From the IMG/VR virus record IMGVR_UViG_3300030438_000300: a DNA stretch of 30,806 nt, one strand, 5' to 3'. Position numbers and translations under genes: made by a program. Below are positions 11,129 to 27,472 of this stretch, in pieces (position 1 is the first letter of the stretch; each line of letters opens with the position of its first letter). The stretch is from a virus. Its lineage: Duplodnaviria > Heunggongvirae > Uroviricota > Caudoviricetes. The notes below the pieces were generated by a model. The model made no database searches. It saw only the letters and a list, made by a program, of their open reading frames with translations, and had not been told where the DNA came from.

Positions 11129-12211
11129 TTAGAACTGATACACCAGACCTACAGCGACGATGTCGTCGGTATCAATACCAGCTGTTTTGGTAAACTTACT
11201 ATCGTCAATTAAGTTGATTTTGTAATCAACAAAAGTGGACATGTTTTTATTAAAGTAGTAAGTAGCACCGACATCGACATACTTGACTAAGTCTCGGTCA
11301 CCATGAACACCAAGGTCTTTACCTTTTGACTGAAGGTAAGCAACAGATGGTCGCAGACCGAAGTCAAACTGATATTGTGCTACTGCTTCAAAGTTTTGTG
11401 CTTTGTTTGCAATATGGTTATTACCAAAAACGGTCATATTCTGAGTTTCAGAATATGTGGTAGCCAGATAGATATTGTTCGCATCATATTTCAGGCCTGC
11501 AGCCCATACTTCCGCATTTTTGCCGGAGGCATTGAATTTGCTCTTACCATAGGCGACCTGACCGTCAGTGCGATCTGATTTAGCATAGGTTGCACCCACG
11601 CCGAATCCTTCATACTCATAAGTAGTGGAGAAACCGAAACCATCACCATTGGCTTCAGTTACGTCAGTGCGGTCATTTTTACCCTGATACTGAGCAGCAA
11701 AGTTCAGGCCATCGACCAGACCAAAGAAGTCGTTGTTACGATAGGTTGCAACACCAGTGGTGCGACCAGTCATGAACACATCTGTTTGGGTCCAGGTATC
11801 GCCACCGAATTCTGGCAGAACGTCAGTCCACGCACCGATGTCGTATGCTACACCGTAGTTACGGCCGTAATCGATTGAGCCGTAGTCACCGAATTTCAGG
11901 CCTGCAAATGCAAGACGGGTTTTGTCTTTGGAGGAACCTTGAGATTCAGCGCGGTTGCCTTTGAATTCATATTCCCACTGACCGAAACCAGTCAGTTGAT
12001 CGTTGATTTGGGTTTCACCTTTGAAGCCAAGACGGGCATAAGTAGTATCACCATCATCTGCATCATTAGAGGAGAAGTAGTGCTTAGCATTAACTTTCCC
12101 GTACAGATCCAGCTTGTTACTGTCTTTATTATAAATTTCAGCTGCCTGAGCAGACATCGCCATCAGTACTGATGCAGCTACAGCAGAAATTGCCACTGTT
12201 AATTTTTTCAT
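11129..12211 (-). CDS. nmpC: Outer membrane general porin (OmpC/NmpC family), apparently intact
   Basis: 360-aa product with signal peptide [30 protein letters not shown]..., beta-barrel porin-like sequence and C-terminal ...VGLVYQF. Lies between Q and the lysis genes on the opposite strand, as nmpC does in DLP12. Confidence 0.9.
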
Positions 12212-22746: not shown

Positions 22747-22767
22747 GGTCGTTAATGATTTTACCCA

Positions 22768-22790
22768 CCCGCCGCTGGCGGGTTTTTTAT
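22768..22790 (+). terminator. Intrinsic terminator/attenuator upstream of the major tail gene
   Basis: CCCGCC-GCTG-GCGGG hairpin followed by TTTTTTATTTT. Confidence 0.65.
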
Positions 22791-22805
22791 TTTCAGGAGA
22801 CGAGT

Positions 22806-23510
22806 ATGTCCTCTAATTTTGAGCGTTCGCAACTGACGAAAATTATGATTTCGTCTGCACCGGTAACAGCAGAAACCCTGGATTCTGCCAGCTATCTTGG
22901 CCTGAGCTGTACAATCAAAGAAGTGCAGTTTACCGCTGGACAAAAGCAGGATATTGATGTCACCACGCTGTGTTCTGTTGAGCAGGAAAATATTAACGGT
23001 CTTGGTGCCGCGTCAGAGATTTCCATGTCAGGCAACTTTTACCTCAATGCTGCCCAGAACGCGTTGCGCAGTGCCTATGACAATGACACCACGTATGGCT
23101 TTAAAGTTATTTTTCCGTCAGGCAACGGATTTACCTTTATGGCAGAAGTGCGTCAGCATACCTGGTCTGCAGGAACCAATGGTGTTGTGGCTGCAACGTT
23201 TTCCCTGCGTCTGAAAGGCAAACCTGTGCTGACGACAGCTTCGCTGAAAGTGAAGGTTGATTTAAAAAGCACGCTGCGGGTTGCTTCCGGAGCGAAACTT
23301 GAAATGGCGGTTGAGGCTGCGGGTGGTGTGCCGCCTTATTCTTATGTCTGGAAGAAAGGTGGTTCTCCTGTTTCCGGACAGACGGCGGCAACGTTCAGTA
23401 AGGCATCAGCATCATCCGGTGATGCGGGTGCGTATACCTGCGAGATTTCTGATTCAGCGAGCCCGGTTAACAAAGTGACCTCCACTTCCTGCACTGTAAC
23501 CGTCAGTTAA
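22806..23510 (+). CDS. Major tail protein with C-terminal Ig-like (Big_2-type) domain
   Basis: 234-aa product from MSSNFERSQLTKIM... with AGGAG RBS. The C-terminal ~90 aa (LKVKVDLKSTLRVASGAKLEMAVEAAGGVPPYSYVWKKGGSPVSGQTAATFS...YTCEISD) fit an Ig-like domain pattern. Confidence 0.8.
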   Translation: MSSNFERSQLTKIMISSAPVTAETLDSASYLGLSCTIKEVQFTAGQKQDIDVTTLCSVEQENINGLGAASEISMSGNFYLNAAQNALRSAYDNDTTYGFKVIFPSGNGFTFMAEVRQHTWSAGTNGVVAATFSLRLKGKPVLTTASLKVKVDLKSTLRVASGAKLEMAVEAAGGVPPYSYVWKKGGSPVSGQTAATFSKASASSGDAGAYTCEISDSASPVNKVTSTSCTVTVS

Positions 23511-23896
23511 TGAGGATGGATGTGATGACTAAAAATATCCGTAATCTGGCACTGGCAACGATGTCGGGGTTTCGCCATAAAACCGTTGATGTGCCTGAAT
23601 GGGAGGGAGCAACGGTTGTGTTACGGGAACCTTCTGCAGAAGCCTGGTTGCGCTGGCAGGAGATCGTTAAAGCAAAAGATGATGAGACACCGTTATCCGT
23701 TGCGGAGCGCGCCCGCCGAAATCTGGAGGCAGATGTTGAACTGTTCATTGATGTTCTGTGTGATACCGGACTGCAACCCGTATTTTCAGAGGATGATCGT
23801 GAACAGGTGATTGCCGTGTATGGCCCGGTGCATGCGCGGCTTCTTCGGCAGTCTCTGGAACTGATCAGTGATGCCGGCGAGGTTAAAAAAAAGTAG
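23510..23896 (+). CDS. Tail assembly chaperone (gpG-like)
   Basis: 128-aa ORF ending ...GEVKKK-stop, with the slippery run immediately before the stop. Confidence 0.75.
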   Translation: MRMDVMTKNIRNLALATMSGFRHKTVDVPEWEGATVVLREPSAEAWLRWQEIVKAKDDETPLSVAERARRNLEADVELFIDVLCDTGLQPVFSEDDREQVIAVYGPVHARLLRQSLELISDAGEVKKK

Positions 23897-24198
23897 CGCT
23901 TCCGGGGATGCGTTTTCTGATGATGCTGGCGCTCAGGATGGGGCGCACATTGTCAGAGTTACGCCGGGAAATGTCCGCATCAGAAATCATGATGTGGGCA
24001 GAATTTGACAGGTTCAGCCCGCTGGGGGACGAACGGGCTGATTTCCGGGCTGCCCAGATTGTTTCAGCTGTTTACGGTGCGCAGGGGGTCAAAGTGTCAC
24101 TGAATGATGCGCTTCTTCAGTGGGAGAAGGAGCAGACAGAAGGCGCTTCAGATCCATTTGCCGGACTGGAAAACGCGCTTTTAATAGTGTCTCAGTGA
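23893..24198 (+). CDS. T segment of tail assembly chaperone GT, reached by programmed -1 frameshift from G
   Basis: Heptamer A-AAA-AAG at 23887-23893 sits in the last codons of G. The -1 frame is open from 23887 to 24198 and encodes ...VALPGMRFLMMLALRMGRTLSELRREMSASEIMMWAEF.... Confidence 0.65.
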   Translation, partial: VALPGMRFLMMLALRMGRTLSELRREMSASEIMMWAEFDRFSPLGDERADFRAAQIVSAVYGAQGVKVSLNDALLQWEKEQTEGASDPFAGLENALLIVSQ

Positions 24199-24206
24199 GT
24201 CAACAT

Positions 24207-24228
24207 AACCGCTTCGGCGGTTTTTTTT
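24207..24228 (+). terminator. Intrinsic terminator/attenuator between the GT chaperone and tape measure genes
   Basis: AACCGC-TTCG-GCGGTT hairpin followed by T8. Confidence 0.65.
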
Positions 24229-24238
24229 CGTCCGGAGA

Positions 24239-27200
24239 ATGAGTGTGGCGACATTACGTGAACTGATTATTAAAATCTCGGCAAATTCCCGGTCATTCCA
24301 GTCAGAGATCTCCCGGGCTTCGCGTATGGGGCAGGATTACTACCGTACCATGCAGAACGGAGGCCGGCAGTCCGCTGCTGCATCCCGTGAAATGCGGCGT
24401 GCACTGGCAGAAGTGACGGATCAGATAAATACAGCTAAATCTTCGGCACTGAATATGGCGGGGGCATTTGCCGGGGCTTTTGCTACCGGTCATCTTATTT
24501 CTCTCGCCGATGAGTGGAATTCAGTAAATGCCCGTCTGAAGCAGGCCTCACAGTCCAGTGATGATTTTCAGGTATCACAACGTGAATTAATGGCGATCAG
24601 CCAGAGAACGGGGACGGCGTTTTCTGATAACGCCAGCCTTTTTGCCCGTTCTGCAGCTTCCATGCGGGAGTATGGTTACAGTTCTGAGGAGGTACTGAAA
24701 GTCACCGAGGCGATCTCCACGGGCCTGAAATTATCCGGTGCCAGTACAGCAGAAGCCAGTTCGGTGATCACGCAGTTCAGTCAGGCACTGGCGCAGGGAG
24801 TGCTGCGCGGTGAAGAGTTTAACTCGGTGAATGAGAGCGGTGATCGTGTTATTCGTGCGCTGGCTGCGGGAATGGGCGTTGCCCGTAAGGATCTGAAGGC
24901 CATGGCGGATAACGGAAAACTAACCGCCGATAAGGTTGTTCCTGCACTGATTAGTCAGCTTGGGGCGTTGCGTGATGAATATGCAGCAATGCCTGATACG
25001 GTTTCATCCTCTGCAACCAAAGTTGAAAACGCCTTTATGGCCTGGGTTGGTGGTGCGAACGAGGCAAGCGGAGTGACGAAGACGCTCTCCGGGGTGCTGA
25101 ATGGTCTTGCAGGCAATATTGACACCGTGGCAACCGCTGCCGGTGCTCTGGTTGCCGTCGGGGTAGCCCGATATTTTGGCAATATGGCGTCTTCTGCTGG
25201 ATCTGCAACTGCCGGATTAATTACTGCAGCCAGAAACGAAGTGGCTCTTGCTGAAGCGCAACTTCGGGGGACACAGATAGCAACCGCCAGGGCGCGTGCG
25301 GCGGTTTATCGTGCGCAACAGGCGGTTGTTGCTGCTCGCGGTACCGAAAGGCAGGCCGCAGCAGAAGCGAAGCTGACAGCTGCTCAGGCGTCACTTACCC
25401 GTAATATTGCGGCCAGAACAGCGGCACAGACAACGCTGAATACTGTCACGTCAGTGGGGAGTCGTCTGTTAAGTGGTGCGCTGGGGTTGGTTGGTGGTGT
25501 GCCGGGACTCGTCATGCTGGGGGCGACGGCCTGGTACACGATGTATCAGAATCAGGAGCAGGCCAGAGAATCTGCACGCCAGTATGCCGCAACAATCGAC
25601 GAAATTCGCCAGAAAACGTCGGCAATGTCGCTTCCTGAAGCGTCAGATAATGAGGAAAAGACGCGGCAGGCACTTGATGAGCAAAACAGGTTAATTGACG
25701 AGCAGAAAAGTAAGATTAAATCCTTACAGGAAAAAATTGCTGGCTATCAGTATGTGCTGGCAAACCCGGGCTGGACAACCGATAACGGTTTTATGATTAA
25801 CCACATGACGTCGGTAAAAACTGTCACAGAAGGGCTTGCAGAAGCAACAAATCAACTGGCAGTTGAACAGTCCCGTCTCACACAAATGCAGGGCAAAGCG
25901 CAATCCATTCAGGATGTGCTTGCCGGGCTGGAGGAGCGACGGGTGGCGTTGATCCGTCAACAGGCCGCGGAACAAAACAAAGCGTATCAGTCCCTGTTGA
26001 TCATGAATGGGCAGCATACCGAGTTTAATCGCCTTCTCGGGCTCGGTAATGAATTACTTCATCAGCGACAGGGGCTGGTGAATGTACCGTTACGGCTACC
26101 ACAGGCAACCCTGGATGATAAACAGCAGACTGCACTGAATAACAGCGAGCGCGAACTGGCTCTGTCCCGCCTGAAGGGGGAAGCCCGTGAGCGTGCCCGC
26201 CTGGGTTATGCTGCGGATGATCTCGGCTTTGTGGGAGAGGCGTATCAGACAGCCAGACAGAATTATATCAATAACTCACTGGATGCCTGGCGAAATAACC
26301 AGGCAAATAAACCCAAAGCGCATAAAAAGACCGAAGCGGAAAAAACAGAAGATATTTATAAACGGCTGATTAAACAGCAAAAAGAACAAATAGCACTGGC
26401 AGGGCAGAATACTGAACTGGCTAAGATGAAATATCAGGTCAGTCAGGGCGAATTATCAACCCTGTCAGAAGCGCAGAAAAAAACGCTTTTGCAGAATGCA
26501 GCACTCATCGACCAGAAAAAGATTCGTGAGCAGCTTGCTGCGTATGAAAGCAGCCTGGCGGACAGTAATGCCAGTGCCCGGGCATCTGACGACGCGCAGT
26601 TACTGGGATATGGTGAAGGCTCACGGATGCGTGAACGACTCCAGGAAATGTGGAGTATCCGGCATGAGTTTGAGCAGAAAAATAACGAGCTGCTGAGACA
26701 GTATCAGGCCGGAGAAATTGAAGAAGCCCTGTGGAAACAGGAGAAAGAACTGAATAAAAAATATCTGGAAGAGCGTCTCAGCGATCAGCAGGATTATTAT
26801 GCAAAGGCCGATGCTTTACGTAATAACTGGAATGCAGGACTCCAGGAGGGGCTGACCAACTGGGCAGACAGTGCCACCGATTATGCTTCGCAGGCGGCAG
26901 ATGCTGTCGTTTCCACTATGGACGGACTGGTATCAAATATTTCCGATGCACTGGCCGGAAATGTTGTGGACTGGAGAAACTGGGGGAGTTCAGTTCTCCG
27001 GGAAGTTTCAAAAATTCTGATGAATGCGGCCATTGTTAACGGACTGAAGTCACTCTCCGGTGCCGGAGGGTGGCTTGGTACGGTCGGCGGATGGATTTCG
27101 GGGGCGGTGGCAAACGCAAAAGGTGGTGTTTACACATCGGCAAATCTGAGTGCTTACAGTAACACTATTGTGGATACACCGACGTATTTTGCTTTTGCGA

Positions 27201-27472
27201 AAGGTGCCGGGCTGATGGGCGAGGCCGGGCCTGAAGCTATCATGCCACTGACACGGGCAGCGGACGGCTCTCTTGGGGTCAGAGCCATTGGCAATGTGAA
27301 TAGTGGCGGGGGGGGTGTTTATTCTCCCGTGTATCACATCAGCATTCAGAATCAAGGGAGCAATGGCGAGATAGATGCGCGCTCAGCCAGGGGACTGGTG
27401 GATCTGATCGACAGCAGGGTTGTGTCAATTATGCAGTCATCGCGTCGGGATGGAGGATTGTACAGTGCCTGA
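24239..27472 (+). CDS. Tail tape measure protein
   Basis: 1077-aa ORF, Ala/Gln-rich and helical with Gly-rich hydrophobic segments, in the conserved position after G/GT. The start could instead be GTG 24245, which has better spacing to GGAG. Confidence 0.9.
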   Translation: MSVATLRELIIKISANSRSFQSEISRASRMGQDYYRTMQNGGRQSAAASREMRRALAEVTDQINTAKSSALNMAGAFAGAFATGHLISLADEWNSVNARLKQASQSSDDFQVSQRELMAISQRTGTAFSDNASLFARSAASMREYGYSSEEVLKVTEAISTGLKLSGASTAEASSVITQFSQALAQGVLRGEEFNSVNESGDRVIRALAAGMGVARKDLKAMADNGKLTADKVVPALISQLGALRDEYAAMPDTVSSSATKVENAFMAWVGGANEASGVTKTLSGVLNGLAGNIDTVATAAGALVAVGVARYFGNMASSAGSATAGLITAARNEVALAEAQLRGTQIATARARAAVYRAQQAVVAARGTERQAAAEAKLTAAQASLTRNIAARTAAQTTLNTVTSVGSRLLSGALGLVGGVPGLVMLGATAWYTMYQNQEQARESARQYAATIDEIRQKTSAMSLPEASDNEEKTRQALDEQNRLIDEQKSKIKSLQEKIAGYQYVLANPGWTTDNGFMINHMTSVKTVTEGLAEATNQLAVEQSRLTQMQGKAQSIQDVLAGLEERRVALIRQQAAEQNKAYQSLLIMNGQHTEFNRLLGLGNELLHQRQGLVNVPLRLPQATLDDKQQTALNNSERELALSRLKGEARERARLGYAADDLGFVGEAYQTARQNYINNSLDAWRNNQANKPKAHKKTEAEKTEDIYKRLIKQQKEQIALAGQNTELAKMKYQVSQGELSTLSEAQKKTLLQNAALIDQKKIREQLAAYESSLADSNASARASDDAQLLGYGEGSRMRERLQEMWSIRHEFEQKNNELLRQYQAGEIEEALWKQEKELNKKYLEERLSDQQDYYAKADALRNNWNAGLQEGLTNWADSATDYASQAADAVVSTMDGLVSNISDALAGNVVDWRNWGSSVLREVSKILMNAAIVNGLKSLSGAGGWLGTVGGWISGAVANAKGGVYTSANLSAYSNTIVDTPTYFAFAKGAGLMGEAGPEAIMPLTRAADGSLGVRAIGNVNSGGGGVYSPVYHISIQNQGSNGEIDARSARGLVDLIDSRVVSIMQSSRRDGGLYSA

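What the first reader, a model, noticed from the sequence alone, without database searches (positions are those of the whole stretch)
23887..23893. Canonical -1 slippery heptamer A-AAA-AAG at the end of the G-like chaperone gene
The heptamer sits in the last codons of the 128-aa G-like ORF, and the -1 frame is open from that point for 102 codons up to the tape measure gene. This is the conserved G/GT programmed-frameshift arrangement of tailed phages and would produce a ~230-aa GT fusion.
Basis: partly seen in the sequence, partly recalled or inferred. Interest (0 to 1): 0.4.

Follow-up and report, generated by a model that had tools for sequence, protein, structure and literature searches.

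The report
Phage tail chaperone G/GT frameshift site
This is the standard programmed -1 ribosomal frameshift site that lets an HK97-like E. coli prophage make a short tail-assembly chaperone and, occasionally, a longer fused version from the same mRNA; it is real but well known and ordinary.

Summary
A_AAA_AAG lies at 23887-23893 in the X_XXY_YYZ phase of the chaperone gene, whose stop TAG follows at 23894-23896. The -1 frame has its own stop (TAA, 23884-23886) just before the heptamer. The two frames are therefore open together for only 10 nt: the heptamer plus the stop.

The upstream ORF is an HK97-type tail assembly chaperone (Pfam Phage_TAC_1, 2.7e-58; PDB 2OB9, 4.6e-49). The -1 ORF is a lambda-T-type domain (Phage_tail_T, 2.3e-19). 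They lie between the tail tube and tape measure genes.

Of 160 related loci, 157 have a G homolog one frame ahead of T. In 79 species-level loci, 56 carry an in-phase canonical heptamer, 46 of them A_AAA_AAG. Met 23908 aligns with a start codon in only 22 of 87 distinct homologs, while residues upstream of it are conserved in the -1 frame.

Corrections: G probably starts at 23525 (123 aa), giving a 224-aa GT. No RNA stimulator was found.

Identical DNA occurs in many E. coli genomes. The same heptamer in HK97-like prophage chaperone genes is already published, with 6-7% frameshifting measured. Low interest.

The parts
22806..23510 (+). Major tail (tube) protein gene with an in-frame C-terminal Ig-like domain. 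It is the upstream neighbour that defines the G/GT position.
   Evidence: phrog_158 major tail protein 3.9e-110; Pfam Ig_2/Ig_3/I-set plus weak tail-tube hits. The RefSeq start corresponds to 22806. The ORF list gives 22755..23510.
23525..23896 (+). G-type tail assembly chaperone gene (0 frame), 123 aa. The alternative upstream ATG at 23510 would give 128 aa.
   Evidence: Pfam PF06222 Phage_TAC_1 2.7e-58, matching from residue 6 of the 128-aa ORF. phrog_344. PDB 2OB9 'Tail assembly chaperone' 4.6e-49. RefSeq WP_000164661.1 has the same coordinates. SD GAGGA lies 9 nt upstream.
23884..23886 (+). TAA stop in the -1 frame, immediately 5' of the heptamer. It sets the upstream limit of the frameshift window.
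   Evidence: Translation of the -1 frame and the script.
23887..23893 (+). Slippery heptamer A_AAA_AAG in X_XXY_YYZ phase, lying inside an A8 run at 23885-23892.
   Evidence: The same in-phase heptamer occurs in 46 of 79 species-level related loci.
23894..23896 (+). 0-frame stop codon TAG of G, directly 3' of the heptamer. It is a possible slow-decoding ('shifty stop') context.
   Evidence: The stop directly follows the heptamer in 32 of the 46 A_AAA_AAG species-level loci, and follows AAG directly in 13 (within one codon in 2 more) of the loci that lack a full heptamer.
23887..24198 (+). -1 frame ORF encoding the T domain (103 codons plus TGA). Annotated in RefSeq as a separate CDS from ATG 23908.
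   Evidence: Pfam PF06223 Phage_tail_T 2.3e-19. phrog_337, and phrog_14766 positions 126-220. RefSeq 'phage tail assembly protein T'.
23525..24198 (+). Predicted GT fusion of 224 aa: 23525-23893 read in frame 0, then 23893-24195 read in frame -1. The junction reads ...GEVKKK|VALPGMRFLM...
   Evidence: phrog_14766 (224 positions) is matched by G at 1-121 and by T at 126-220. HK97 NP_037707.1 and KS9 gp12 are annotated as joined -1 frameshift products.
24207..24230 (+). Terminator-like hairpin AACCGCTTCGGCGGTT followed by T8, in the gap between T and the tape measure gene.
   Evidence: HK97 and mEp234 records annotate putative terminators just upstream of the tape measure gene.
24239..27472 (+). 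Tail length tape measure protein gene (1077 aa), the downstream neighbour.
   Evidence: Pfam Phage_HK97_TLTM 7.7e-94, TMP_3, Tape_meas_lam_C. phrog_339. TIGR01541.

Best explanation
The site is the programmed -1 ribosomal frameshift site of an HK97-like tail assembly chaperone pair in an E. coli lambdoid prophage.

Most ribosomes translate G (23525-23893) and terminate at TAG 23894, giving the 123-aa chaperone. A small fraction slip back one base on A_AAA_AAG. The single E. coli tRNA-Lys pairs better with AAA than with AAG, so tRNAs on AAA-AAG re-pair on AAA-AAA. Those ribosomes then read GTA GCG CTT CCG GGG ATG... in the -1 frame and terminate at TGA 24196, giving a 224-aa GT fusion.

By analogy with lambda gpG/gpGT, the G parts coat the tape measure protein and the T domain recruits the tube protein. 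This starts tube polymerisation around the tape measure. Neither protein remains in the virion, and the G:GT ratio is fixed by the slip frequency.

Shown here: sequence anatomy, family membership, synteny and evolutionary conservation. Inferred: that the slip occurs, its frequency (probably below 10%), and the protein functions.
For: Anatomy:
- The heptamer is in phase and exactly fills the 10-nt stretch open in both frames.
- It is the only in-phase A_AAA_AAG among the listed ORFs of the window.

Identity:
- G matches PF06222 (195.7 bits, cutoff 25) and the HK97 chaperone structure 2OB9.
- T matches PF06223 (70 bits, cutoff 25.9), the same family as lambda T.
- A 224-position PHROG profile spans G and T as one protein.

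Synteny: tube - G - T - tape measure - M - L - K - I.

Conservation:
- tblastn of the GT fusion finds 226 phage records, and nearly all of the 60 records listed are matched as 2 pieces, i.e. with a frame change.
- 157 of 160 related loci have a G homolog in the +1-relative frame upstream of T.
- Among 79 species-level loci, 56 have an in-phase X_XXY_YYZ heptamer in the overlap: 46 A_AAA_AAG, 5 G_GGA_AAG, 4 A_AAA_AAC and 1 G_GGA_AAC. All but one of the remaining 23 keep an in-phase A_AAG or C_CCG tetramer at or 1 codon before the G stop.
- Flanking codons vary freely.
- A-run length varies (6, 7 or 8) but the phase is never lost.

Against an independent T start: the Met 23908 column is ATG or TTG in only 22 of 87 distinct homologs, while K-K/A-V-x-x-P upstream of it is conserved in the -1 frame.

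Precedent:
- HK97 gp13/gp14 and KS9 gp11/gp12 are annotated as -1 frameshift pairs.
- Sharma et al. 2014 (PMC4066793, Table S4) list prophage cluster A_AAA_AAG_25, typified by ECs1801, as a true case. ECs_1801 is 68% identical to this G and ends AGA AAA AAG TAG.
- Antonov et al. 2013 (PMC3711429) measured 6% and 7% frameshifting for two genes of an HK97-like tail assembly chaperone cluster.
- The lambda mechanism and the roughly 30:1 ratio are reviewed in PMC5009743.
Against: - No protein data exist for this locus.
- RefSeq and most phage records annotate G and T as separate genes.
- No stimulatory element was found. The 97 nt downstream fold no better than shuffles (z = -0.97). 16 diverse homologs give no conserved or covarying structure (-0.37 kcal/mol, 0 compensatory pairs). 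The upstream GAGG is only 3 nt from the heptamer, not the roughly 10 nt seen in dnaX.
- The bare heptamer gave only 0.29% frameshifting in a reporter without stimulators (PMC4066793 Table S3), so efficiency here may be low.
- ATG codons at 23908, 23920 and 23923, with a weak GGGG(A) upstream of the last two, mean some independent T translation cannot be excluded from sequence alone.
Confidence: 0.9

Rival explanations
1. G and T are two separate proteins. T is translated independently from ATG 23908 (or from the conserved Met codons at 23920/23923) by termination-reinitiation after the G stop 11 nt upstream. The heptamer is an incidental Lys-Lys C-terminus.
For: RefSeq annotates T as its own CDS from ATG 23908. 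The G stop and ATG 23908 are 11 nt apart, a distance compatible with translational coupling. The Met of the FLM motif (23920) is conserved in nearly all homologs and has a weak GGGG(A) 12 nt upstream. In Klebsiella phage P7641 an ATG follows the G stop closely.
Against: The codon aligned with Met 23908 is Thr, Leu, Val (GTA/GTT) or Ile in 65 of 87 distinct homologs, including Ile in a close relative (L152). The -1-frame residues before it are nevertheless conserved. ATG 23908 has no usable SD, since the GGGG abuts the ATG. The in-phase heptamer and the -1 offset are conserved across orders of bacteria while flanks diverge, which independent initiation does not require. Lambda T shares PF06223 but has no Met at the FLM position. 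The reviews and papers read here describe lambda T only as part of the frameshift product gpGT (PMC5009743, PMC3296357).
Confidence: 0.05
2. The frame change is made at the RNA level. RNA polymerase slips on the A8 run (23885-23892) and inserts one extra A, so a subset of mRNAs encode G and T in one frame. The resulting GT would carry one additional Lys.
For: The site sits in a run of 8 A. Antonov et al. 2013 cite A runs with n > 7 as sites of programmed transcriptional realignment. Homopolymer length is visibly unstable in relatives (A7 in L116/L141, A9 in L027).
Against: Run length is not conserved. Species-level relatives have A6 (10), A7 (33) and A8 (7), mostly too short for efficient polymerase slippage. 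The X_XXY_YYZ phase, which does not matter for transcriptional slippage, is kept in every case. Other family members use G_GGA_AAG or G_GGA_AAC, which are not homopolymers. At most this is a minor additional contribution in the A8 variants.
Confidence: 0.04
3. The heptamer and the downstream ORF are a chance arrangement or a decayed prophage remnant, and no GT is made.
For: The window comes from a prophage, and some copies carry damaging indels in the A run (L116, L141) or IS insertions nearby.
Against: Both ORFs score far above the Pfam cutoffs and are intact. Matching DNA is present in 902 of 5426 complete E. coli genomes, at 99% identity or more in 422, and in induced or isolated phages. 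The arrangement is conserved in 157 of 160 loci.
Confidence: 0.01

Closest known systems
Phage HK97 gp13 / gp14 (tail assembly chaperone and its -1 frameshift extension; PDB 2OB9)
   Same: Same Pfam families for both parts (PF06222 + PF06223), about 61% identity to the HK97-like mEp234/HK446 GT. Same position between the major tail and HK97-type tape measure genes, and the same -1 offset. The HK97 record annotates the joined frameshift product.
   Different: HK97-like phages have CGG GAA AAG ... CCC CCG GCG TAA, with no canonical heptamer in phase and a 40-52-nt overlap. This locus has A_AAA_AAG abutting the stop and a 10-nt overlap. HK97 also has a moron gene (gp15) between T and the tape measure gene, which is absent here.
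E. coli O157 Sakai prophage Sp9 ECs_1801/ECs_1802 and Stx-phage homologs (cluster A_AAA_AAG_25 of Sharma et al. 2014)
   Same: Same heptamer A_AAA_AAG followed directly by TAG, and the same gene order. G is 68% identical and GT is about 63% identical in phage 2851. The cluster is listed as a true -1 PRF case.
   Different: A6 rather than A8 run. The overlap is 25 nt. The codon aligned with Met 23908 is Ile.
Phage lambda gpG / gpGT (Levin, Hendrix & Casjens 1993; Xu, Hendrix & Duda 2004, 2013, 2014)
   Same: Same logic and position: a -1 shift near the end of G, the T domain in PF06223, a low-frequency fusion needed as an assembly chaperone, and the tRNA-Lys A_AAG half-site.
   Different: Lambda uses G_GGA_AAG, 6 codons before the G stop. 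Lambda G belongs to a different Pfam family (PF06894). BLASTP finds no pairwise similarity for either part.
E. coli dnaX tau/gamma frameshift
   Same: [quoted passage not shown]
   Different: dnaX has an upstream SD-like stimulator about 10 nt away and a downstream stem-loop, and shifts at about 50% to make a shorter product. Here no stimulator was found, the expected frequency is low, and the shift makes a longer product.

Membership tests
G/GT-type tail assembly chaperone frameshift (Xu, Hendrix & Duda 2004) | Two consecutive ORFs between the major tail (tube) gene and the tape measure gene | tested here: met
   Tube 22806-23510, G 23525-23896, T 23887-24198, tape measure 24239-27472.
G/GT-type tail assembly chaperone frameshift (Xu, Hendrix & Duda 2004) | The second ORF is in the -1 frame relative to the first and overlaps its 3' end | tested here: met
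   The -1 frame is open from 23887 and the G stop is at 23894-96, a 10-nt overlap.
G/GT-type tail assembly chaperone frameshift (Xu, Hendrix & Duda 2004) | Slippery sequence in the correct phase inside the overlap | tested here: met
   A_AAA_AAG at 23887-23893 in X_XXY_YYZ phase.
G/GT-type tail assembly chaperone frameshift (Xu, Hendrix & Duda 2004) | The arrangement is conserved among homologs although sequences diverge | tested here: met
   157 of 160 loci have G in the +1-relative frame. 56 of 79 species-level loci have a canonical in-phase heptamer.
G/GT-type tail assembly chaperone frameshift (Xu, Hendrix & Duda 2004) | The downstream ORF lacks its own conserved translation start | tested here: met
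   The Met 23908 column is a start codon in 22 of 87 distinct homologs and has no usable SD. A conserved Met 4 codons later cannot be excluded as a start.
G/GT-type tail assembly chaperone frameshift (Xu, Hendrix & Duda 2004) | A fusion protein is made at low frequency and is required for tail assembly | not testable with these tools
   Needs western blot or mass spectrometry plus genetics. The only related measurements are 6% and 7% for two genes of an HK97-like chaperone cluster (PMC3711429).
Pfam PF06222 Phage_TAC_1 (HK97 gp13-type chaperone) | Score above the gathering threshold over the full profile | tested here: met
   195.7 bits against a cutoff of 25, profile positions 1-124 of 124. 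PDB 2OB9 4.6e-49.
Pfam PF06223 Phage_tail_T (lambda T-type domain) | Score above the gathering threshold | tested here: met
   70.0 bits against a cutoff of 25.9, profile positions 1-69 of 73. Lambda T scores 54.1 bits in the same family.
Pfam PF06894 Phage_TAC_2 (lambda gpG family) | Sequence similarity of the G part to lambda gpG | tested here: not met
   The window G hits only PF06222. Lambda G hits only PF06894. BLASTP gives no significant alignment. It works like lambda G but is not a member of that sequence family.
dnaX / IS3-type stimulated -1 frameshift | Upstream SD-like element about 10 nt away and/or a downstream hairpin or pseudoknot 5-9 nt from the heptamer | tested here: not met
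   GAGG lies 3 nt upstream. The downstream fold has z = -0.97. The consensus structure of 16 homologs is -0.37 kcal/mol with 0 compensatory pairs.
Programmed transcriptional realignment | A conserved long homopolymer (A run longer than 7, typically 9 or more), independent of reading phase | tested here: not met
   The run is A8 here, but A6 or A7 in 43 of 50 species-level relatives. The phase is always conserved.

The most novel reading that the evidence does not exclude
The family may use the 0-frame stop codon directly after A_AAG as its only stimulator (a 'shifty stop' P-site slip) rather than any RNA structure. The stop abuts the heptamer in 32 of 46 A_AAA_AAG species-level loci. It also abuts or nearly abuts A_AAG in the 15 lineages that have lost the first half of the heptamer (GCA AAG TAA, GAA AAG TAA). 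In this A8 variant, polymerase slippage and reinitiation at the nearby ATGs could add further products, so the locus would yield G, GT and some free T in a ratio set by three mechanisms.
Probability: 0.12. Interest if true: 0.3.

Novelty: already known. Interest (0 to 1): 0.1.

Why it matters
It matters mainly for annotation. RefSeq and most phage records split this locus into two genes ('phage tail assembly chaperone' and 'phage tail assembly protein T'), whereas the biologically relevant products are probably G and a 224-aa GT fusion. Correct modelling affects proteomics searches and prophage completeness calls. It also affects engineering of HK97-like tails, where the G:GT ratio encoded by the heptamer must be preserved. 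It adds nothing conceptually new to recoding or phage assembly.

Tried and rejected
- Downstream stimulatory RNA structure. The single-sequence fold of 23894-23990 is not better than shuffles. The alignment fold of 16 diverse homologs gives no consensus structure or covariation. A local GCGCUC...GGGCGC hairpin starts about 36 nt after the heptamer and lies in the conserved ALRMGR codons, so it is too far away and is explained by coding. Rejected.
- Upstream SD-like stimulator. GAGG at 23879-82 is only 3 nt from the heptamer, against about 10 nt in dnaX, and it varies in relatives. Rejected.
- Direct similarity to lambda G and T by BLASTP: none. The relationship holds only through Pfam PF06223 for T, and G is in another family.
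- NCBIfam has no model for G or T.
- The search for related loci with the 9-sequence alignment that included lambda and Burkholderia phages failed because it had no stretch conserved enough to search with. It was repeated with 6 closer sequences.
- The large protein-database searches, structure prediction and fold search were not used. Family membership and a solved homolog (2OB9) were already unambiguous.
- Two paper look-ups failed on term syntax.

Full report
**Observation**

The window reads ...GGC GAG GTT AAA AAA AAG TAG CGC TTC CGG GGA TGC... around 23876-23910. In the frame of the ORF 23510..23896, the last three sense codons are AAA AAA AAG and the stop is TAG at 23894-96. The heptamer A_AAA_AAG therefore occupies 23887-23893 in the X_XXY_YYZ phase needed for tandem -1 slippage.

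Translating the -1 frame shows a TAA at 23884-86. After it comes an open frame of 103 codons, KKVALPGMRFLMMLALRMGRTL...LIVSQ, ending at TGA 24196-98. The stretch open in both frames is only 10 nt, which is the heptamer plus the 0-frame stop. A -1 shift can join the two ORFs only at this heptamer.

AAAAAAG occurs 16 times on both strands of the window, against 7.75 expected. Among the copies lying in listed ORFs on the same strand, this is the only one in the frameshift phase.

**What the genes are**

- The upstream ORF matches Pfam PF06222 Phage_TAC_1 at 2.7e-58 over the whole profile. It also matches phrog_344 'tail assembly chaperone' and the solved chain 2OB9_A 'Tail assembly chaperone' at 4.6e-49.
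- The -1 ORF matches PF06223 Phage_tail_T at 2.3e-19.
- phrog_14766, a 224-position profile, is matched by G at positions 1-121 and by the -1 ORF at 126-220. Fused G-T proteins of exactly this size are therefore already in phage annotation.
- Upstream lies the tube protein, which carries a C-terminal Ig-like domain. Downstream lies a 1077-aa HK97-type tape measure protein, followed by homologs of lambda M, L, K and I.
- The head module is HK97-like: TerL, portal, S78 protease and HK97-fold capsid.
- The window is an E. coli lambdoid prophage. The 901-bp region matches 902 of 5426 complete E. coli genomes, at 99% identity or more in 422, with the top-listed records 100% identical. It is 97-99.6% identical to several isolated or induced Escherichia phages.

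RefSeq starts G at the ATG corresponding to 23525, giving 123 aa. The Pfam and 2OB9 alignments also begin there, and a GAGGA lies 9 nt upstream. ATG 23510 has no SD and merely overlaps the tube stop. G is thus probably 123 aa and GT 224 aa, not 128 and about 230.

The G domain belongs to the HK97 gp13 family, not to the lambda gpG family (PF06894). Only the T domain shares a Pfam family with lambda.

**Comparative evidence**

*Phage records.* tblastn of the conceptual GT against 50,697 phage records finds 226 records. Nearly all of the 60 records listed are matched as two pieces, meaning a frame change. In a hand-picked set:
- phage 2851 has A_AAA_AAG TAG;
- phi1026b has A_AAA_AAG;
- KS9 has A_AAA_AAA;
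- mEp506 and lambda have G_GGA_AAG;
- HK97-like mEp234 has CGG GAA AAG;
- Klebsiella P7641 has GCA AAG TAA.

HK97 (NP_037707.1), mEp234 and KS9 records state explicitly that the product arises from a -1 frameshift.

*Broader loci.* A scan with a T-domain alignment returned 80 species-level genome loci and 80 IMG/VR loci.
- In 157 of 160, the frame one base ahead of T encodes a homolog of the window's G immediately upstream.
- Among the 79 species-level loci with a G homolog, 56 carry a canonical in-phase heptamer inside the overlap: 46 A_AAA_AAG, 5 G_GGA_AAG, 4 A_AAA_AAC and 1 G_GGA_AAC. All but one of the other 23 keep an in-phase A_AAG or C_CCG tetramer at or 1 codon before the G stop.
- These loci span Enterobacterales, Halomonadaceae, Pseudomonas, Burkholderia, Bordetella and Achromobacter.
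- The codons flanking the heptamer vary freely.
- A-run length is 6, 7 or 8, but the phase is never lost.

In 87 distinct T-frame peptides, the aligned codon is ATG in 21, TTG in 1, and Thr, Leu, Val (GTA/GTT), Ile or Asn in the remaining 65. The -1-frame residues before it (K-K/A-V-x-x-P) are nevertheless conserved. A close relative, L152, has Ile there. This favours translation entering the -1 frame at the heptamer.

**Mechanism**

Established knowledge:
- E. coli has a single tRNA-Lys (mnm5s2UUU) that pairs better with AAA than with AAG. A_AAG is the most shift-prone tetramer, and A_AAA_AAG, G_GGA_AAG and C_CCA_AAG are the most efficient heptamers in E. coli (PMC4066793; PMC5009743).
- Without stimulators, A_AAA_AAG and lambda's G_GGA_AAG behave almost identically in a reporter: 0.29% and 0.28%. 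With IS911 stimulators they give 4.3% and 3.8% (PMC4066793 Table S3).
- The lambda site frameshifts in about 4% of translations. The resulting roughly 30:1 gpG:gpGT ratio is critical for tail assembly (PMC3296357; PMC5009743).
- Two genes of an HK97-like tail assembly chaperone cluster gave 6% and 7% (PMC3711429).

I infer a frequency somewhere between a few tenths of a percent and about 7% here.

I found no stimulatory RNA. The downstream fold has z = -0.97. There is no consensus structure or covariation in 16 homologs. The upstream GAGG is only 3 nt away.

The one conserved context feature is the 0-frame stop directly after AAG, present in 32 of the 46 A_AAA_AAG species-level loci and in most heptamer-less variants. 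It could act as a slow-decoding 'shifty stop' in the sense of Weiss et al. 1987. That is inference, not shown.

Protein function is taken from lambda. The G parts bind the tape measure protein, the T domain binds the tube protein and nucleates polymerisation, and neither is in the virion (PMC5009743).

**Rivals**

- Independent T initiation or reinitiation cannot be strictly excluded. ATGs exist at 23908, 23920 and 23923, and the FLM Met is conserved with a weak GGGG(A) upstream. The conservation pattern argues against it as the main route.
- Transcriptional slippage on the A8 run is conceivable, since A runs longer than 7 are cited as realignment sites. But run length is not conserved whereas phase is.
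- A decayed remnant is excluded by the conservation data.

**Novelty**

This is the textbook G/GT arrangement in its HK97-type form. The same heptamer in an E. coli prophage chaperone 68% identical to this one (ECs_1801, Sakai Sp9) is listed as a true -1 PRF cluster by Sharma et al. 2014. HK97-like chaperone genes have been tested experimentally. The finding is correct, already known, and of low interest. Its practical value is in correcting annotation that splits GT into two genes.

Noticed in passing
window 24207-24230: Terminator-like hairpin AACCGCTTCGGCGGTT (UUCG loop) followed by T8, in the 40-nt gap between the T stop and the tape measure start. HK97 and mEp234 records annotate putative terminators just upstream of the tape measure gene, there after a moron gene (gp15) that this prophage lacks. 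It could lower tape measure transcription relative to tube/G/GT.
   Followed up: partly
window 22767-22792: A second terminator-like hairpin (ACCCGCCGCTGGCGGGT plus a T-run) lies inside the 5' end of the 251-aa ORF 22755..23510. RefSeq starts the tube gene at 22806, so the hairpin is intergenic, as is the putative terminator upstream of the HK97 major tail gene. The long ORF call is probably wrong.
   Followed up: partly
window 23260-23507: The tube protein carries an in-frame C-terminal Ig-like domain (Pfam Ig_2/Ig_3/I-set). It also matches Hoc-like decoration PHROGs. RefSeq names the whole protein only 'immunoglobulin domain-containing protein'.
   Followed up: no
L116 and L141 (about 1490-1510); L027 (about 1490-1512); L124/L125: Homopolymer length variants of the slip site. 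Two IMG/VR relatives have A7, which puts T out of the -1 frame. Ca. Symbiopectobacterium endolongispinus has A9, which fuses G and T in one frame. Two relatives have A_AAA_AAA TAG. These may be real mutations at a hypermutable run or homopolymer sequencing errors.
   Followed up: partly
L031, L032, L037, L050, L051, L053, L056, L058, L072, L078, L079, L026, L041 (junction at about 1495-1510); L006 996-1005: Klebsiella, Pantoea, Erwinia and Yersinia relatives lack the first half of the heptamer (GCA AAG TAA, GAA AAG TAA) but keep A_AAG directly before the 0-frame stop. This suggests a single-tRNA P-site slip helped by the stop codon.
   Followed up: partly
L013-L021, L157-L169, L005 (HK97-like junctions): HK97-like members have no canonical in-phase heptamer. 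The overlap contains CGG GAA AAG and, one codon before the stop, CCC CCG. I did not establish which is the actual shift site.
   Followed up: no
window 11132-12211 (- strand): A 360-aa Gram-negative porin gene (Pfam Porin_1, 1.9e-151) sits on the opposite strand inside the prophage, between the early/regulatory region and the packaging genes. It looks like moron-type cargo.
   Followed up: no
L001 1-1851 (NZ_CP025913.1): In one E. coli genome that is 100% identical over the queried 901-bp G/T region, an IS66-family element (tnpA/tnpB/tnpC) lies just upstream of the tail completion gene and truncates the neighbouring gene. That prophage copy is therefore disrupted.
   Followed up: no
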